Below, piece after piece: positions 48,648-54,733 of a stretch of 64,000 nt of DNA. Positions within the stretch are counted from its first letter, which is position 1. Every line of letters starts with the position of its first letter. The notes under the pieces were generated by a model that worked only from the letters and a program-made list of their open reading frames with translations, was not told the DNA's origin and searched no databases. The stretch comes from Candidatus Marinacidobacterales bacterium (GTDB taxonomy: Bacteria; Acidobacteriota; Vicinamibacteria; Marinacidobacterales; SMYC01). The translations under genes and the position numbers were made by a program. The stretch lies in the NCBI GenBank assembly GCA_965224085.1, contig CBDCYI010000011.1, positions 576,001 through 640,000 on the forward strand. Reading direction: 5' to 3'.

Positions 48648-50458
48648 TCATGAGAGCCATAATTGCCATCGCACTATTATCGGCTGCCGCAGCCGCGCAA
48701 GACGACGCGAAGGACGATGCTTGGGACGTGGGCGCCACTTTCGGCCCCACGAGCCCGCTCGAGTTCGAGACCACCGAAGGTACGTGGATGAACCTCGACA
48801 TCAGCCCCGACGGTACCCAGATCGTCTTCGACCTTCTCGGAGATCTCTACGTGATGCCCGTTTTGGGCGGCACGGCGACGCGGCTGACCGAGGGCGCCGC
48901 GTTCGACATGCAGCCGCGTTTTTCCCCGAACGGAGAGAGCATTGCCTTTGCGAGCGACCGCGACGGGGCGACGAATCTATGGATCGTGGACCGGGACGGC
49001 GCGAACCCGCGCCAGGTTTCGAAAGAGAAGAAGTGGTTCATCAACAGCCCGACGTGGTCGGCGGACGGTGACTATCTGTTCGCGCGCCATCATTTCGTCG
49101 CCCAGCGTTCGCTCGGCGCGGGAGAGATCTGGCTCTACCACATCCGCGGCTCCGGCGGTCTTCAAGTCACCGAGAAGGTCACGTTCCAGAAGGACGCGGG
49201 CGAGCCTTCGATCTCACGCGACGGCCGCTATCTTTATTACAGCAAGGACGTCACACCGAGCCCGAAATTCGAGTACAACAAGGATCCGAACGGAGCCATC
49301 TACGCCATCGTGCGGCGCGACCTCGCGACCGGCGACGAGCGCCGCGTGGTGGACATCCAGGGAGGTGCTATGAGCCCTGCCATCTCTCCCGACGGCAAAC
49401 ATCTCGCCTTCATCCGCCGCATCCGACTTCAGAGTCATCTCTACCTCCAGAACATGGAGACGGGCGAGCAGTGGTCGATCTTCGACGGCCTCGACAAAGA
49501 CCTACAAGAAGCCTGGGCCATCCACGGGCTCTACCCGCAATACAGTTGGACCCCTGACGGGAAGAACATTTTCATATGGCGGCACGGCAAGATCTGGCGC
49601 GTGGACGTCGAGGCACAAAAGGGCGCGGAGGTGCCCTTTCGCGCCCGGGTCGAGCAGACGATCCACGACGCTTTGCGCTTTCCTCAAAGAGTCTTCGAGC
49701 CCGAGTTTCCCGTGCGGATGCTGCGCCACGTTGCGACCTCTTCGGACGGTGGGGAAGTCGTCTATAGCGCGCTCGGGCGTCTCTATCGCAAAGTCTTGCC
49801 CGACGGCGCGCCAGCTCGCCTGACGGAGGACGAGCACATCGAGTACGCGCCTTCTTATTCTCCGGACAAAAACACGATTGTCTACGCGACGTGGTCCGAT
49901 GACGAGAAAGGGAGAATCCGCACCATCGCGCCTGACGGCTCCGGAGCGCGTGAGCTCGTCTCGGTGCGTGGGCACTACACCGACCCTTCGTTCTCGCCGG
50001 ATGGGAAGCACATTGTCTATCGCCGGACGACGGGCGACTCGCTTCGCGGCGAGACCTTTGGGACGGATCCCGGTATCTACGTCGTTTCATTGGATGGAGT
50101 GGATGGCGGTGAGCCGTCTCTCGTTCGCGAGTCGGGTGTAGCGCCCCGTTTCGACCACACGGGCGAGCGCGTCTATTTCGCCGAGCGGCGTGACGATAAG
50201 ACCCTGCTCGCGAGCGTCGAGCTCGACGGTAGCGAAGAGATCGTCCATCTGGAATCCGAGAACGCCACTCAGATCGTGCCGTCCCCCGACGGGCGTTGGG
50301 TGGCTTTCGTCGAGCGGTTCAAAGTGTTCGTAGCGCCTTTTCCTCGCACGGGCCGTACGGTGAGTATCGGGCCGGAAGGATCCGCGATCCCCATCAAAGA
50401 AGTCTCGGGCGATATGGACTCCCCACGCCGGATCAAGAGAAAACGTTCTTCGTAATAG

Positions 50459-51716
50459 TCATCCGCGATTCGCTTTTTTTGTGGGCCACCGGGAGGGGTC
50501 GTAAAGGGTTCCTTGTCGAAGCATCGCAATGGCGATGGGGAGAATGCGGTCCATGACGCCTCTGAGAGCTCTGGCATGGCTGTGGCCTCTGTCACGAAGC
50601 CGGTCGTAGTGTTCTTTGAAGTGGGGGTCGTGCAAAACGGCAGTGCGTGCCCAATGGTGGAGAGCATTATTGAGGGGCAAAGAGCGAGCTCTCCTCATCA
50701 GGATCGTTGGTCGCAACTGACCGCGCTTGCCGCTCTTTTTTGTGACAGGAGCAATGCCGCCGAGAGTCCTGAAGGCGTTGAGATTACGGAGCCGAATGGG
50801 GTCGTGGGCATAGCAGAGCACGGAGGCGAGCACGTAAGCACCGACGCCGGGCAAAGAGGCAAGAATGGCAGGGTCGGAGCAATGCTCGTCGGTTAGTGCT
50901 TGCACGCGCTTGAACCACTTCTCGAGATGCTGGTCGGAGGCACGACGATGTTGTCGAACGAGGAGCAACTGCTGGAGTAGTAGTTGGAGATGCTCGGCGG
51001 TAGCTTGAGTGGTTGCGGTTGCGACCCGGAGAGGTTTTTGTTTGAGGGTATCGAGGATCTTCTCGGGTTTTAGACGTCGGATGCGGTGTTTTTGAGCGAG
51101 GGTCTCAATGGAGTGGCGGCTAAGAGGGTTGGGGCTGGATTCGAAGAAGAGTTTTAGGAGCTCGCAGAAAAAAGCGTCGAGAGCCTTGTCCTTTGGCGCG
51201 AGCGAGACGAGGTGAGGCCAGCAACGAGTAAGGAGTTCTCGGATCTGCGAGCTGAGGGCCACATGGTTTTTGACGAGTTGGTCGCGGGTACTCAGCAACC
51301 CGCGCATAGCGAGGATCTCCGTAGGTGGGAGATGCAAGCGCTGAAAGCGGTGGCCGTCGGTTCTGAGCGAATCGGCGAGAACGAAGGCGTCTCGCCGATC
51401 ATCCTTGGCGCCGCTCATAGAATGCCGGTCGCGGAAACGGTCGACCTGCTTGGGATTGATGGAGAAAATGGCGATGCCGTGGTCAAGAAAGAGCTCGACG
51501 ACGGCCCCATGAGGTTTTTCGATCGCCACCGCGATGCGCTCGGTATCTTGCGAGGTCTCTTCCAAAAGCCAGTCGATGGTTCCCGATAGTCCTTCGCGGC
51601 TATGGGGGGAAGCCTCTCTCCGCCAAGAAGTTACCTTTGGCATCGACCACACTGGCCAAGTGAAGCCATTGACCCAGGTCGATACCGACGAAGAAGTCGT
51701 ATTTGAGTTGATTCAT
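50459..51716 (-). CDS. IS110-family DEDD recombinase/transposase (1-nt frameshift at the G-run ~51605)
   Basis: FVGIDLG (D), AIEKP (E), KDDRRDA (D,D), SLPGVG, and GIAPVTKKSGK (conserved Ser). Confidence 0.92.
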
Positions 51717-51734
51717 GGAAGAACTCATTTCCGC

Positions 51735-51900
51735 CAGCGCATGTGATGTTTCATCGGCCCCTGTACTGGCGCTCGAAGCGCAACTCCCCACTGGATGTCC
51801 ATCACAAAAGAATTGCCGGCACGCATGTCCATTCCTGGCGCTAGGAGCGCAGGGCGACGTATGGCGTTGCCGGCAAGCTGCTGACGAAATCGAAAATAGT
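51735..51900 (-). ncRNA. Bridge-RNA-like ncRNA with target-binding and donor-binding loops (RNA boundaries approximate)
   Basis: Two parallel stem/internal-loop/GCGC-hairpin units whose loop segments match the element ends (9/9 and 7/7) and the insertion site (6/7 and 5/7). Confidence 0.85.
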
Positions 51901-51923
51901 CCAAGCTCATCGTGATATTTGCT

Positions 51924-52340
51924 CTACCATGGCAATCGGAGTTGTCGCGCGATGCCACGAGTTCGTGCTCGGTTTTTTCTCGGTAGTTTCGGGCGAAGCA
52001 CGTCCGAGAGTTTTTCTCGAATGTAAAGAACATAAGGCGGGTCTAGATATTGACTTTGCACTTCCTGGAGCACAGGTGAAAAATAACGAAGGGAGCGAAT
52101 GGGCTGCAGTGGCTCCTCATGTTCTTGTAGCTCCCTACGAGCGCAACCCAGAAGTAGGGCACACTCGAATTCGTGTAACGGGACTCCTTGGCGGTAGAGC
52201 TGCGTCGCGATGAAGCGGTCGTCGCGCCGTGGCCGCTCAGGTGTGTTCGGAATGGAAAGATAGAGGTCCAAAATCGTCCGGACGTAATTGTTTTCTGTCA
52301 GAGCATCGCTCGTGAGCGGTTCATTACCCAGCTTCGACAT
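51924..52340 (-). CDS. IS-borne hypothetical helical protein (138 aa)
   Basis: Intact ORF overlapping the stop of the upstream gene; YVRTILDLYL...GVPL...ALLLG..RR...IRSLRYFSPVLQE. Confidence 0.75.
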   Translation of the reverse strand: MSKLGNEPLTSDALTENNYVRTILDLYLSIPNTPERPRRDDRFIATQLYRQGVPLHEFECALLLGCARRELQEHEEPLQPIRSLRYFSPVLQEVQSQYLDPPYVLYIREKLSDVLRPKLPRKNRARTRGIARQLRLPW

Positions 52341-52738
52341 CCTTTAGCCTCCCGCGTCGGCCGCAGATACAGCATTTGGCATATCTGATACTGTCAATCT
52401 TCGTTTTCATTGAATGAGCCATCGGGCCACTAGCTTGAATTTCACGAACTCCTAGACTGCCAGAATTACTGGGGTGAATGAACCCTTGCTCCGTCACTAT
52501 TTTCGCCGCCTGGCGTAGACGATAATTCTGTTGCCGAGCCGCGTGGAGTTTTCGTGAGTTGAAACCTTTCTGGTAATTTCGGTTATTTTCGCGCTGGTTC
52601 TTATCGCCGGGTTTCGTCACGGCAGGTTGGACCGCAGTAGCACTGTCCCTGGTAACATGACTTGCAGATGAAGAAAGGCATCCCACAGCTTTTGTTGCGG
52701 CAGAAAAGCCGGAGAAGAACGACAGGTTTGGTGGCCAT
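52324..52738 (-). CDS. IS-borne Cys-rich, putative Zn-binding basic protein (frameshift at ~52603)
   Basis: MATK...FCRNKSC..FFICKSCYQGQCYCGPTC RDETRR-[shift]-KNQRENNRNYQ...HAARQQNYR...CCICGRRG. Confidence 0.7.
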
Positions 52739-52903
52739 TCGGAACTCAGCAAAGTGCTGGACGATGGCCGCCCGGATGTGAGAGGCTAGCTTCAACTTGT
52801 AGTGGAGCGCCTCCTCCGGGGGCCATCCAAACATCAGAACCCCGGTCGTTTGTAGCGGCTGGGGCTCACTATTGTCGCACAGCAGGTTCACCCTCTTCTT
52901 GCC

Positions 52904-52975
52904 GGCGCGAGACGATCTGACTGACTCGCGCCAAAGGCGCGAGAGGATGCTGGCCTCGCGCCAGAGGCGCGGGAT
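52904..52975. repeat. Three ~30-nt-period repeats, two forming CTCGCGCC-N3-GGCGCG hairpins
   Basis: ctcgcgccaaaggcgcgag (52925-43), ctcgcgccagaggcgcggg (52955-73), and half-unit ggcgcgagacgat (52904-16). Confidence 0.75.
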
Positions 52976-54445
52976 GAGGCCTTGTACACAGACATTTCCT
53001 ACCGACTCTTCCCGCAACACACGCTTTCGCTGCACTGATGCTTCGGCAAGCGTACAGGGCTACTACGTCCATTGGTCCGGTGACAGCGGGAAGATCCACT
53101 GGAGTCTCGGACCGGAGCTCTACACGCTTTCGCTCGACCCGACCCTCGAGCTCGAGGGCGAAGCGGCGCGGACTGCAATCGGTTTCATGACCGCGAGCGA
53201 CCAGCCGTCCGGGAGCATCACGCTCGTCGGTGCCCGCATCGTCACGATGGACGGGGACCGTGTGATCGAGAACGGGACCGTGGTCGTGGACGAGAACCGC
53301 ATCACGGCGGTGGGACCGTCCGATTCCGTGTCGGTGCCGTCCGGCGCCACGCGCATCGATGTCTCTGGCCGCACGATCATTCCGGGCATCGTGGACGTCC
53401 ACGCTCACGTCGGAAGCGAGAGCGGGGGTATCCTCTCGGAGCAAAACTGGAGATTCGTCGCGAACGTGGCCTATGGCGTGACCACCTCGCACGATCCTTC
53501 GAACGGTACGGAGATGGTGTTCACCAACTCCGAGATGATCCGCGCGGGCAAGAAGCTCGGCCCGAGACTCTACTCGACCGGCACGATTCTCTACGGCGCC
53601 GAAACCCCGTTCAAAGCCGTCATCGAGAAATACGACGACGCGCTCGCGCATCTCCGGCGCCTGAAGGCTGTGGGTGCCTTCTCCGTCAAGAGCTACAACC
53701 AGCAGCGTCGTGATGTACGCCAGATGATCATCAAAGCGGCGCGCGAGCTCGAGATGATGGTCGTCCCCGAAGGCGGCTCGCTTCTCTATATGGACGAGAC
53801 CTTCGTCTATGACGGCCATACCGGGCTCGAGCATTCGCTCCCCGTGCCGGTTTTATACGACGACGTCGTGAACTTGTACGGGAGAAGTCGTACCGGCTAC
53901 ACGCCCACGCTCATCGTCGGCTATGGCGGTCTCTCGGGCGAGAATTACTGGTACCAGCACGACGAAGTTTGGGCGAACGAGAACCTGCTCCAGTACACGC
54001 CGCGAGAGATCGTGGATGCGCGCGCACGTCGCCGCACGATGGCGCCCGAGGACGATTTCAACCATGTCCTGATCTCGGAAGGCGCGAAGAAGATCCTCGA
54101 CGCGGGAGGGCTCGTCCAGCTCGGCGCCCACGGACAGCTGCAAGGTCTCGGTGCGCACTGGGAGCTCTGGATGCTCGAGCAAGGCGGGATGACGGAGCTC
54201 GAAGCGCTCCGATCCGCCACGCTCATGGGTGCGGAATATATCGGCCTCGACGGCGAGCTCGGCTCGATCGAGGAAGGCAAGCTCGCCGACCTCGTCGTGC
54301 TCGGCAAAAACCCACTCGAGAACATCCGGAACAGCGAGAGCGTTCAGATGGTCATGCTCAACGGCCGGCTCTACGACGCGGCAACGATGAGCGAGATCGG
54401 GAACCATCCCAAGGAGCGAAAGCCGTTCTACTGGCAGTCTGCGCG

Positions 54446-54733
54446 ATGAGCCTGCTCATGCTTCTGCTGCTTGCTCAGTTCAACTACGATGCGAAAGAGG
54501 CGCTCGCTGTGGACGCGTCGGAGGTCGAGCTCGTCGAGGGCGCGCGCTTGCAGGAAATCTCCTATGCGAGTCCCAAAGGCGGGCGCGTCCCCGGATATTT
54601 GATCGCGCCTCAAGGCGCCGGACCGCATGCGGGCATCGTGTTCGTTCACTGGGGCCAGGGAAACCGTACCGAGTTCGTCGCGGCCACCCAGGCCGCGATG
54701 AGGCGTATCGCTTCCGACGCTACCCAGCCATAG
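54446..54733 (+). pseudogene. Alpha/beta hydrolase N-terminal fragment
   Basis: ISYASPKGGRVPGYLIAPQGAGPHAGIVFVHWGQG, ending before any nucleophile motif. Confidence 0.7.

What the first reader, a model, noticed from the sequence alone, without database searches (positions are those of the whole stretch)
51735..51900. Bridge RNA readable from sequence: guides match both the element ends and this insertion site
Seen (RNA = minus strand): two parallel modules. Target loop: GUCGCCC-U-GCGC-uccua-GCGC-CA-GGAAUGG, closed by a ttgccggca/tgccggcaa stem (51813-21 / 51868-76). Donor loop: GUGGGGAGU-U-GCGC-uucga-GCGC-CA-GUACAGG, closed by tgtgatg/catcaca (51742-48 / 51800-06). The reconstructed circle junction is GTGGGGAGT-CC-TGTAC. 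The first donor guide is 9/9 identical to 50418-50426 and the second is the exact reverse complement of CC-TGTAC (7/7). The reconstructed empty target is GTAGC-CC-ATATC. The first target guide matches 6/7 and the second 5/7, including the four core-proximal bases (ATGG). Established: this four-guide layout is that of IS110 bridge RNAs. Inference: the core is CC (IS621 uses CT), and the ideal target would be GTCGC-CC-ATTCC, so this insertion is a tolerated mismatch site.
Basis: partly seen in the sequence, partly recalled or inferred. Interest (0 to 1): 0.85.

Follow-up and report, generated by a model that had tools for sequence, protein, structure and literature searches.

The report
Bridge RNA aimed at kinase genes
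This is a genuine guide ("bridge") RNA of a 2.6-kb IS110-type jumping gene, and its relatives show that the RNA is tuned to insert the element into the DNA that encodes a conserved loop of protein kinases.

Summary
Window 50416-53058 (minus strand) is a 2,643-bp IS110-group element. Its bridge RNA lies at about 51732-51886. The donor guides equal the element's ends (9/9 and 7/7, core CC). A same-genus genome holds the uninterrupted site.

Other copies in this genome sit at sites 1-3 mismatches from the 14-nt guide-predicted target; the window site has 5. A 3-copy variant lineage has a changed right target guide, and 2 of its 3 insertions match that change.

A covariance model finds the RNA upstream of the recombinase gene in 53 of 60 genome relatives and all 40 close metagenome relatives. 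Base-pair covariation is strong.

Three things are new:
- The natural target is the codons G-M-G-[D/E]-V of the kinase glycine-rich loop (35 of 38 and 20 of 24 distinct flanks).
- Guide variation among 20 guide pairs falls on codon third positions, apart from one lineage.
- Every close relative carries one or two unknown genes between the left end and the RNA.

The window copy is decayed (frameshifted recombinase) and off-target. Transcription is not shown. It is a known kind of system in a new variant.

The parts
50416..53058 (-). Whole IS110-group element, 2,643 bp including the CC core at both ends
   Evidence: The ends were defined by 4 near-identical full copies with different flanks. They are confirmed by in-frame restoration of the host gene and by the empty site in a same-genus genome.
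53052..53058 (-). Left end: core CC (53058-53057) plus right-donor bases TGTAC (53056-53052). TACGCT (53054-53049) is a candidate -10 of the circle-junction promoter.
   Evidence: It is the exact reverse complement of the right donor guide. TAC..T follows the core in 16 of the 16 relatives printed.
53059..53065 (-). Left target flank TAGTAGC (host DNA)
   Evidence: It matches 4 of the 7 non-core positions of the left target guide.
52324..52738 (-). orfA, a Cys-rich protein of about 137 aa. It is broken in this copy by an extra T at 52603.
   Evidence: It is intact in L002-L004. It has 14 homologues, none named, and its cysteines are invariant. It is present in 36 close relatives and in no distant one.
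51924..52340 (-). orfB, a 138-aa helical protein of unknown function. Its start overlaps the end of orfA.
   Evidence: It has 72 homologues, with no Pfam domain and no name beyond 'hypothetical protein'. The AlphaFold2 model has pLDDT 79 and five helices. No PDB fold match was found. It is present in 35 close relatives.
51732..51886 (-). Bridge RNA core, bounded by the outer stem 51886-51880 with 51738-51732
   Evidence: A consensus fold and a covariance model support it. The sequence is 100% identical in the 7 main-lineage copies.
51813..51876 (-). Target-binding loop. Its parts are the stem 51876-51868 with 51821-51813, the left target guide 51860-51852, the hairpin 51850-51838, the right target guide 51835-51829 and the handshake AC 51828-51827.
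   Evidence: Sequence. The stem pairs co-vary (helices 2, 3 and 6). The guides match the flanks of other copies and of relatives.
51742..51806 (-). Donor-binding loop. Its parts are the stem 51806-51800 with 51748-51742, the inner stem CAUC 51797-51794 with GAUG 51755-51752, the left donor guide 51791-51783, the hairpin 51781-51769, the right donor guide 51766-51760 and the handshake GG 51759-51758.
   Evidence: Sequence. The stems co-vary (helices 7-9). Relatives with changed donor guides have correspondingly changed ends.
50459..51716 (-). IS110-family recombinase gene. It is frameshifted here by a sixth C in the run 51609-51604.
   Evidence: PF01548 and PF02371 both hit. The intact 418-aa form in L002 matches NF033542 at 162.9 bits against a cut-off of 140. 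The extra C is absent from L002-L004. The protein aligns to IS621 chain 8wt6_A with the serine motif conserved.
50416..50436 (-). Right end. Its parts are the -35-like TTGATC (50436-50431), the left-donor bases GTGGGGAGT (50426-50418) and the core CC (50417-50416).
   Evidence: Sequence. A TTGAC-like hexamer sits 4 nt before the donor 9-mer in 12 of the 12 right ends printed.
50411..50415 (-). Right target flank ATATC (host DNA)
   Evidence: It matches 3 of the 5 bases predicted by the right target guide.

Best explanation
Window 51732-51886 (minus strand) encodes the bridge RNA of a 2.64-kb IS110-group insertion sequence.

How it works, by analogy with IS621:
- The element excises as a circle. 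This joins the right end to the left end at the CC core and probably creates a promoter (TTGATC, 17 nt, TACGCT).
- The RNA's donor loop pairs with the joined ends GTGGGGAGT-CC-TGTAC.
- Its target loop pairs with ACGTCGC-CC-ATTCC.
- The DEDD/serine recombinase exchanges strands at CC.

The target read on the other strand is GGA ATG GGC GAC GT, the codons G-M-G-D-V of the glycine-rich loop of serine/threonine kinases. The element therefore homes into a large family of related kinase genes, antisense to the gene. Mismatches at codon third positions are tolerated.

The window copy is a rare insertion outside a kinase gene, matching 9 of 14 target positions, in a beta-propeller/amidohydrolase gene. 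Its own recombinase gene is frameshifted. Its RNA and both ends are intact, so the three intact copies elsewhere in the genome could act on it.

Shown: the anatomy, the guide-end and guide-flank matches, structural covariation, and the target identity.
Inferred: transcription, the promoter, how the RNA is released from a long transcript, catalysis, and any role of orfA and orfB.
For: Own-copy matches:
- The donor guides match the ends 9/9 and 7/7.
- Both matches arose together in 1 of 200,000 shuffles.
- The empty site is seen in a same-genus genome.

Copies in this genome:
- There are 10 copies of the RNA, 7 of the main type with identical RNA.
- The six with both flanks sit 1, 1, 2, 2, 3 and 5 mismatches from the 14-nt prediction. 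L003 and L004 have 1, L002 and L005 have 2, L009 has 3 and the window has 5.

Variant lineage:
- Its right target guide has one changed base, predicting CC-ATACC.
- That sequence is found at 2 of its 3 insertions.

Structure:
- RNAalifold on 7 sequences gives 43 pairs, 19 of them with compensatory changes.
- The model hits directly upstream of the recombinase gene in 53 of 60 genome-collection relatives and in 40 of 40 close metagenome relatives.
- 89.7% of cells are paired, against 29-39% when the partners are slid. 38 of 43 pairs change on both sides. No shuffle out of 500 reaches the observed values.

Guides against flanks across the family:
- Right target flanks match at 86 of 100 positions, against 43.9 when the pairing is permuted.
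- Left target flanks match at 223 of 266, against 162.5.
- In both cases 0 of 5000 permutations reach the observed value.
- Relatives with donor guides GAAGGGAGT or GAAGAGAGT have exactly those right ends. Those with GTACCGG have the left end CC-GGTAC.

Kinase target:
- 35 of 38 distinct N-side flanks end in G.G[GAS]M. 20 of 24 distinct C-side flanks begin G.V[YWFLH].
- Host fragments match Pkinase from profile position 13 in L003, L006, L017 and L033.
- The 20 distinct guide pairs vary only at left-guide positions 3 and 6 and right-guide position 3, apart from one lineage. All 20 encode G-M-G-[E/D/T]-V.

Recombinase:
- PF01548, PF02371 and NF033542 all hit.
- It aligns to IS621 at E = 2e-7.

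Handshake bases:
- AC after the right target guide complements the last two donor bases GT.
- G after the right donor guide complements target position 7.
- This is the scheme described in PMC11208158 (passages read).
Against: - No transcript is shown. The only RNA-library data are assembled contigs, which cannot prove transcription, strand or ends.
- The consensus scan found 0 sigma-70-like promoters in the linear element.
- The RNA lies 1.15 kb downstream of the putative junction promoter. How it is made or released is unknown.
- Folding the single sequence is unremarkable: z = -1.35, and 21 of 200 shuffles fold at least as well. The minimum-energy fold also pairs guide segments with each other.
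- Rfam 15 gives no match.
- The window site matches only 9 of 14 guide positions. The genome holds 1,092 places with 3 mismatches to the ideal target, so guide pairing alone does not explain why this site was used.
- In the variant lineage the first base of the left donor guide differs from the right end (8/9).
- At the three third-codon positions the guide equals the target in only 13 of 24, 14 of 24 and 24 of 38 cases.
- The alignments were fitted to the model and the sequences are related. The shuffle and permutation figures therefore overstate independence.
Confidence: 0.93

Rival explanations
1. The RNA sequence is a real bridge RNA by descent, but this copy is an inert fossil. It has no recombinase of its own, sits at a poor site, may never be transcribed, and no longer moves.
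For: - The recombinase gene is frameshifted by a sixth C, and orfA is broken by an extra T.
- No promoter was found.
- The site matches only 9 of 14 guide positions.
Against: - The RNA is 100% identical to that of the intact copies, and both ends are intact.
- Three copies with intact recombinase are in the same genome.
- PMC11208160 reports that the IS621 bridge RNA works when supplied in trans (passages read).
- The C9 copy (L005) shares the extra C at a different site. That is compatible with movement of a frameshifted copy, with repeated slippage, or with a homopolymer assembly error.
Confidence: 0.3
2. The region is only a structured 5' leader of the recombinase mRNA, for example for control of translation. 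Its complementarity to the ends and flanks is coincidence.
For: - The outer stem ends 16 nt before the start codon.
- The single-sequence fold is not exceptional.
- Rfam gives no match.
Against: - Guide segments change together with ends and flanks across dozens of relatives, while the stems keep pairing.
- The chance of both donor matches arising together is about 1 in 200,000.
Confidence: 0.03
3. The 2.64-kb unit is a composite. On this view a compact IS110 (RNA plus recombinase) has its true left end just upstream of the RNA and lies beside an unrelated orfA-orfB module.
For: - In more distant relatives the left end lies only 20-50 nt upstream of the RNA.
- Expanded IS110 loci that grew by local insertion are described in preprint 10.64898/2026.08.14.744561 (sections 5 and 8 read).
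Against: - No CC-TGTAC lies near the RNA. The only copy on that strand within the element is at 53058-53052.
- The host frame and the same-genus empty site are restored only by removing the whole 2,643 bp.
- Four copies move as a whole unit.
- All 20 close relatives with a visible left end have it 584-1157 nt upstream of the RNA, with orfA in between.
Confidence: 0.03

Closest known systems
IS621 bridge RNA and recombinase (IS110 group). Sources: PMC11208160 and PMC11208158, passages read.
   Same: - The recombinase has the same two domains, a DEDD RuvC-like domain and a serine Tnp domain.
- The RNA is encoded upstream of the recombinase gene, with the target loop first and the donor loop second.
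- Each loop has a left guide identical to the top strand and a right guide complementary to it, flanking a hairpin.
- A 2-nt core is shared by the target and both ends.
- A 9-nt left target guide includes the core.
- Handshake bases lie 3' of both right guides.
- A -35 element in the right end and a -10 element in the left end would be joined in the circle.
   Different: - The core is CC, not CT. The IS621 papers call the T almost invariant among its orthologues.
- The left donor guide stops before the core, and a U faces the first core base.
- An outer stem supported by covariation encloses both loops. I saw no such stem in the passages I read.
- The recombinase is 418 aa against 326 aa and is only distantly similar (E = 2e-7, Tnp domain).
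- 0.6-1.15 kb with one or two genes lies between the left terminus and the RNA.
- The target is a protein-coding motif rather than a REP element.
Expanded, cargo-bearing IS110 loci (bioRxiv 10.64898/2026.08.14.744561; abstract and sections 5 and 8 read).
   Same: It is an IS110 element larger than 2 kb that carries extra genes and no second transposase. Guides complementary to the flanks lie in a non-coding RNA-like region.
   Different: - The extra genes here are small, of unknown function and not plasmid-derived.
- They are conserved throughout a clade down to 60% recombinase identity.
- They sit upstream of the RNA, not downstream of the transposase module.
- The whole unit is found at 4 or more sites as near-identical copies.
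Off-target 'half-match' insertion by IS621 (bioRxiv 10.64898/2026.08.31.748434; abstract only).
   Same: The window insertion is at a site that matches the target loop only in part (4 of 7 left positions, 3 of 5 right positions, plus the core).
   Different: Neither half of the window site is a full match. No experiment exists for this element.
IS1111-group elements and seekRNA (passages of PMC11208160).
   Same: The recombinase family and the guide logic are the same.
   Different: Their RNA lies in the right end, downstream of the gene, and they have long subterminal inverted repeats. Here the RNA is upstream.

Membership tests
IS110-group element with bridge RNA | Recombinase with a DEDD RuvC-like domain (PF01548) and a Tnp domain (PF02371) with a conserved serine | tested here: met
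   Both Pfam domains hit the window protein. The intact L002 form scores 162.9 bits on NF033542 against a cut-off of 140. The serine of K-S-G aligns with the E-S-G serine of IS621 chain 8wt6_A. The window copy itself is frameshifted.
IS110-group element with bridge RNA | Structured non-coding RNA encoded in the left end, upstream of the recombinase gene, with two internal loops | tested here: met
   The consensus structure has 43 pairs. 89.7% of cells are paired against 29-39% for slid controls, and 38 of 43 pairs show double changes. The RNA is found upstream of the gene in 53 of 60 and 40 of 40 relatives. Departure from the usual layout: two genes separate it from the left terminus.
IS110-group element with bridge RNA | Donor-loop guides match the joined right and left ends around the core | tested here: met
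   The matches are 9/9 and 7/7 here. Relatives with variant guides have matching variant ends.
IS110-group element with bridge RNA | Target-loop guides match the insertion sites, left guide as the top strand and right guide as its complement | tested here: met
   Non-wobble positions match at 109 of 120 (left) and 151 of 152 (right). Permutation controls give 0 of 5000. The window site itself matches only 9 of 14.
IS110-group element with bridge RNA | The same core dinucleotide at both ends, present once in the empty site | tested here: met
   CC is at 53058-53057 and at 50417-50416. A single GG on the plus strand is in the same-genus empty site. The core is CC, not the CT of IS621.
IS110-group element with bridge RNA | Handshake bases 3' of the right guides that pair with position 7 of the other DNA | tested here: met
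   AC follows the right target guide, and the donor ends ...GT. G follows the right donor guide, and target position 7 is C. AC follows the right target guide in 52 of 55 family rows. The test is by sequence only.
IS110-group element with bridge RNA | A promoter reconstituted across the right-left junction of the circle | tested here: inconclusive
   TTGATC, a 17-nt spacer and TACGCT would be formed. A TTGAC-like hexamer and TAC..T are conserved in the printed relatives. No circle, transcription start or joined read was seen (one search found no joints).
IS110-group element with bridge RNA | The RNA is transcribed and bound by the recombinase, and recombination depends on the guides | not testable with these tools
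   Only contigs of RNA libraries cover 51755-51851. That is not proof of transcription.
Rfam RNA families | A match to a curated covariance model | tested here: not met
   There were 0 matches at E <= 1 in 49500-54000 on both strands. This bears on Rfam's coverage, not on the mechanism.
IS621 and close orthologues | A CT core with a nearly invariant T, and a REP-element target | tested here: not met
   The core is CC in the window element and in all 44 rows of the close clade (RTG and RDG end in GG). The target is a kinase coding motif. This element is not an IS621 orthologue.

The most novel reading that the evidence does not exclude
This is a distinct IS110 lineage that homes into a family of related genes. 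Its target loop is matched to the codons of the kinase glycine-rich loop. The guide is free to drift only where the target's third codon positions are degenerate.

The lineage also depends on its own small proteins. orfA is a zinc-ribbon-like, arginine-rich protein, usually accompanied by the helical orfB. They would be transcribed only from the circle-junction promoter, together with the RNA and the recombinase. On this reading they act in transposition, for example by releasing or loading the bridge RNA from a long transcript or by assisting integration into transcribed genes.
Probability: 0.35. Interest if true: 0.78.

Novelty: new variant of a known kind. Interest (0 to 1): 0.62.

Why it matters
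Bridge RNAs are being developed as programmable DNA recombination tools, and the natural examples studied so far aim mostly at intergenic repeats.

This lineage shows a natural bridge RNA aimed at a conserved protein-coding motif that is present in dozens of related genes per genome. Mismatches are tolerated exactly at the third codon positions. That is a ready-made natural experiment on which guide positions matter.

It also offers three further things:
- a CC-core system only distantly related to IS621;
- an RNA architecture with an enclosing stem;
- two conserved unknown proteins placed between the junction promoter and the RNA, which could be new accessory factors.

For the host, the element is a specific mutagen of kinase genes.

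Tried and rejected
Rfam search of 49500-54000 found nothing at E <= 1.

The single-sequence fold had z = -1.35 and pairs guides with each other. It is of no use as evidence either way.

The sigma-70 and terminator scan of the element found 0 promoters. By eye, the 75 nt upstream of the RNA in 32 distinct relatives show no shared promoter-like motif. I found no convincing remnant of an older left end next to the RNA.

The function of orfA and orfB stayed open:
- Pfam gave nothing at E <= 0.01.
- NCBIfam gave only a 16.9-bit hit to a 'hypothetical protein' model with a cut-off of 117.
- Homologues are all unnamed or called 'hypothetical protein'.
- The ESM Atlas returned only clusters of hypothetical proteins.
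- The orfB model (pLDDT 79) had no Foldseek match in the PDB; the best E-value was 1.4.
- The orfA model was too poor to search (pLDDT 52.8).

Public runs:
- 20 of the 24 listed runs hold the stretch or part of it, 5 of them on record as RNA.
- I laid 4 of the 24 (X15-X18). All are contigs and no joint was found.
- Depth per contig cannot show transcription. Parts without cover mean nothing.

In one search the row for G016 was taken on the wrong strand and is uninformative. Only the G015 row is used.

Literature: three searches listed no paper that links IS110 or bridge RNAs to kinase genes as targets. This covers the held library only. I did not open any supplementary file. Supplementary Tables 1 and 5 of PMC11208160 may list natural targets, cores or orthologues that include this clade.

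Full report
WHAT IS THERE

On the minus strand the window holds a 2,643-bp mobile element, 53058 down to 50416. Its order is as follows.
- Left end: core CC at 53058-53057, then TGTAC.
- orfA: 52738-52324, a Cys-rich protein.
- orfB: 52340-51924.
- The structured RNA: about 51886-51732.
- An IS110-family recombinase gene: 51716-50459.
- Right end: TTGATC, 4 nt, GTGGGGAGT, then core CC at 50417-50416.

The recombinase carries PF01548 and PF02371. Its intact form in a sister copy passes the NCBIfam model 'IS110 family RNA-guided transposase' at 162.9 bits against a cut-off of 140. It aligns to the solved IS621 recombinase at E = 2e-7, with the serine of the Tnp motif conserved.

CHECK OF THE OBSERVATION

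- The first donor guide (51791-51783) equals the last nine bases of the element before the core.
- The second donor guide (51766-51760) is the reverse complement of CC-TGTAC at the left end.
- In 200,000 shuffles of the 155-nt RNA both matches occurred together once.

The host gene encodes PD40 repeats followed by an amidohydrolase domain. It is restored in frame by removing the element and one CC. A genome of the same genus carries the uninterrupted site GATAT-GG-GCTAT inside a 1064-aa open frame.

OTHER COPIES IN THE GENOME

The genome holds 10 copies of the RNA.
- Seven are of the main type, with the 241-nt RNA region identical. One of these is cut at base 216 by an internal deletion.
- Three belong to a variant lineage that is 85-91% identical.

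Full main-type copies sit at four different places.

Main-type sites, read as seven left bases, the core and five right bases:

| Copy | Site |
|---|---|
| L002 | GCGACGC-CC-ATTCC |
| L003 | ACCTCGC-CC-ATTCC |
| L004 | ACGTCAC-CC-ATTCC |
| L005 | ACGTCCC-CC-ATCCC |
| L009 | TTGTCGC-CC-ATGCC |
| window | TAGTAGC-CC-ATATC |

The guides predict ACGTCGC-CC-ATTCC.

The variant lineage differs in the RNA at a few bases, and two of them lie in the target guides. Its left guide begins ACU instead of ACG. Its right guide is GGUAUGG instead of GGAAUGG. Two of its three insertions have CC-ATACC, exactly as that change predicts. The third has CC-ATCCC.

STRUCTURE

An alignment of seven RNAs gave a consensus of 43 pairs, 19 of them with compensatory changes. 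Recombinase identity to the window's element in this set runs from about 40% (L018, L021, L030) to near identity.

A covariance model built on that alignment found the RNA directly upstream of the recombinase gene in 53 of 60 relatives from the genome collection. It also found the two own copies that were included, and gave three weak reverse-strand hits.

On that alignment of 58 rows, 55 of them distinct and including the three weak rows:
- 89.7% of cells form pairs, against 29-39% when the partners are slid by 1-3 columns.
- 38 of 43 pairs show changes on both sides.
- No shuffle of 500 reaches the observed values.

The two 'helices' that RNAalifold draws between the target guides are the weakest (55% and 73% paired). 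This is expected, because they are guides and not a stem.

The supported helices are these:
- an outer stem that encloses both loops;
- the two-part closing stem of each loop, with a bulged A in the target loop;
- the hairpin inside each loop.

Caveats: the alignment is fitted to the model and the sequences are kin. The single-sequence fold is not informative (z = -1.35).

GUIDES AGAINST ENDS AND FLANKS ACROSS THE FAMILY

I dereplicated the 54 rows with a usable right donor guide to 47.
- In the 20 where the right end could be located, the five bases after the core match the reverse complement of the right target guide at 86 of 100 positions. Permuting the pairing gives 43.9.
- In the 38 where the left end could be located, the seven bases before the core match the left-guide region at 223 of 266. 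Permuting gives 162.5.
- In both cases 0 of 5000 permutations reach the observed value.

Relatives whose left donor guide reads GAAGGGAGT or GAAGAGAGT have exactly that right end. Those whose right donor guide reads GTACCGG have the left end CC-GGTAC.

The bases 3' of the right guides fit the handshake scheme of PMC11208158 (passages read). AC after the right target guide complements the donor's last two bases GT. G after the right donor guide complements target position 7 (C).

All 12 right ends printed carry a TTGAC-like hexamer 4 nt before the donor 9-mer. All 16 left ends printed have TAC..T starting at the third base after the core. The circle would therefore carry a -35 element, a 17-nt spacer and a -10 element across the junction, as described for IS621 (PMC11208160, passages read).

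THE NATURAL TARGET

Read on the host's coding strand, the predicted target is GGA ATG GGC GAC GT, that is G-M-G-D-V.

Flanking translations show that most insertions split the motif G-x-G-G-M|G-[EDV]-V-Y. I recognise this from general knowledge as the glycine-rich ATP-binding loop of serine/threonine kinases; no tool gave that label.

Pfam confirms it. The host fragment just after the insertion aligns to Pkinase from profile position 13 in L003, L006, L017 and L033, and weakly in L004.

A scan of metagenome contigs gave 40 relatives with 60-94% recombinase identity. The RNA model hit all 40.

I pooled these with the genome-collection and own-genome copies and counted distinct flanks.
- 35 of 38 N-side flanks end in G.G[GAS]M. 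One of the three exceptions (L004, ...IGQCGM) is also a kinase by Pfam.
- 20 of 24 C-side flanks begin G.V[YWFLH]. One of the four exceptions (L113) failed only because its flank was too short for that script; one search shows GVVY there.

Loose ends of contigs in marine-sediment RNA libraries also read as kinase loops.

The 44 rows hold 20 distinct guide pairs.
- They vary only at left-guide positions 3 and 6 and at right-guide position 3.
- One lineage also changes left-guide positions 4 and 5.
- The three variable positions face the third bases of the codons GGN, GGN and GAN.
- All 20 predicted targets translate to G-M-G-[E/D/T]-V.

At these three positions the guide equals the actual target in 13 of 24, 14 of 24 and 24 of 38 cases. 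At the other positions it does so in 109 of 120 and 151 of 152 cases. Mismatches are thus tolerated where the target family is degenerate.

In this genome, 27 uninterrupted kinase loops of the form G-x-G-[GA]-M-G-x-V remain. All differ from the main guide at two or more positions. One equals the variant guide exactly. No perfect empty site for the main guide is left.

THE WINDOW COPY

Compared with its three intact sisters, the window copy has three differences:
- a sixth C in the run 51609-51604, which frameshifts the recombinase;
- an extra T at 52603, which breaks orfA;
- a substitution at 52839.

RNA-library contigs of relatives also lack the extra C and the extra T. The copy is therefore non-autonomous. 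Its RNA and ends are intact.

PASSENGER GENES

In more distant relatives (35-44% identity) the left end lies 20-50 nt upstream of the RNA. In all 20 close relatives with a visible left end it lies 584-607 nt or 994-1157 nt upstream.

tblastn finds orfA in 36 close loci and orfB in 35. The misses for orfA are contigs cut short upstream. Neither gene is found in the 40 distant metagenome loci.

orfA has invariant cysteines (C-x4-C-x6-C-x2-C-x4-C-x-C-x3-C, and a C-terminal C-x2-C) and an arginine-rich helix. orfB is a five-helix protein. Neither has a named relative or a fold match.

Because both genes lie between the putative junction promoter and the RNA, they would be expressed from the circle together with the RNA and the recombinase. 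That they act in transposition is an inference. Cargo-bearing IS110 loci as such are already described in preprint 10.64898/2026.08.14.744561.

DISTRIBUTION

The RNA model hits 3 of the 19 genomes held for the host's family, this genome included.

WHAT IS NOT SHOWN

The following remain open:
- that the RNA is transcribed;
- that the junction promoter works;
- how the RNA is released from a transcript that would start 1.15 kb upstream;
- that the recombinase is active.

VERDICT

The finding is real and its interpretation is right. As a bridge RNA it is a further member of a kind known since 2024. Four features make it a new variant of that kind:
- the CC core;
- the enclosing stem;
- the conserved upstream genes;
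- a target loop tuned to a kinase coding motif, with variation at the third codon positions.

I found no paper describing this last feature in three searches of the held library. I did not open supplementary files.

Noticed in passing
L009 / L014 (G000 C5:333084-334703): This main-type copy has an internal deletion of about 1 kb that removes most of the recombinase gene. It keeps the left end, orfA, orfB, the bridge RNA and the right end. It sits at its own site, TTGTCGC-CC-ATGCC. It could be a non-autonomous derivative moved in trans, or the deletion may have happened after insertion.
   Followed up: partly
L005 / L011 (G000 C9:115780-118250) and window 51604-51609: The C9 copy shares the window copy's extra C in the recombinase gene. 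It also has a 174-bp deletion across the end of orfA and the start of orfB (window equivalents 52409-52236). The shared frameshift could mean that a defective copy spread, that slippage recurred, or that the homopolymer was misassembled.
   Followed up: partly
L007 / L016 (G000 C11:764573-766949): A variant-lineage copy is truncated on its left side (it starts at element position 333). There it abuts a 32-bp right-end fragment in the opposite orientation, whose own flank is CC-ATTCC. This looks like a rearrangement between two copies.
   Followed up: no
G000 C5, minus strand, about 2126703: An uninterrupted kinase gene (...GKGGMGEVWLA...) has 14 bases that equal the variant lineage's predicted target exactly. 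It is an unoccupied perfect site.
   Followed up: no
window 48650-50415 and 53057-54449 (+): The interrupted host gene encodes a protein of about 1060 aa, with PD40 beta-propeller repeats followed by an amidohydrolase domain. Intact orthologues with 92% identity exist in two genomes of the same genus.
   Followed up: partly
L029, left end (locus about 1999-2040): The first 18 bases or so after the core are tandemly duplicated (TACCCTTGAAGCGTCCGG twice), in a relative from a Gemmatimonadales assembly.
   Followed up: no
L018, L019, L052; L021, L030, L020, L029; and the Acidobacteriaceae group (L054 and others): More distant relatives with compact left ends aim at other sequences: ...GCCC-CC-TCACC, C-rich runs (CC-CCCCC), or CCGCAACG-CC-CCGAT. 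What these targets are was not examined.
   Followed up: no
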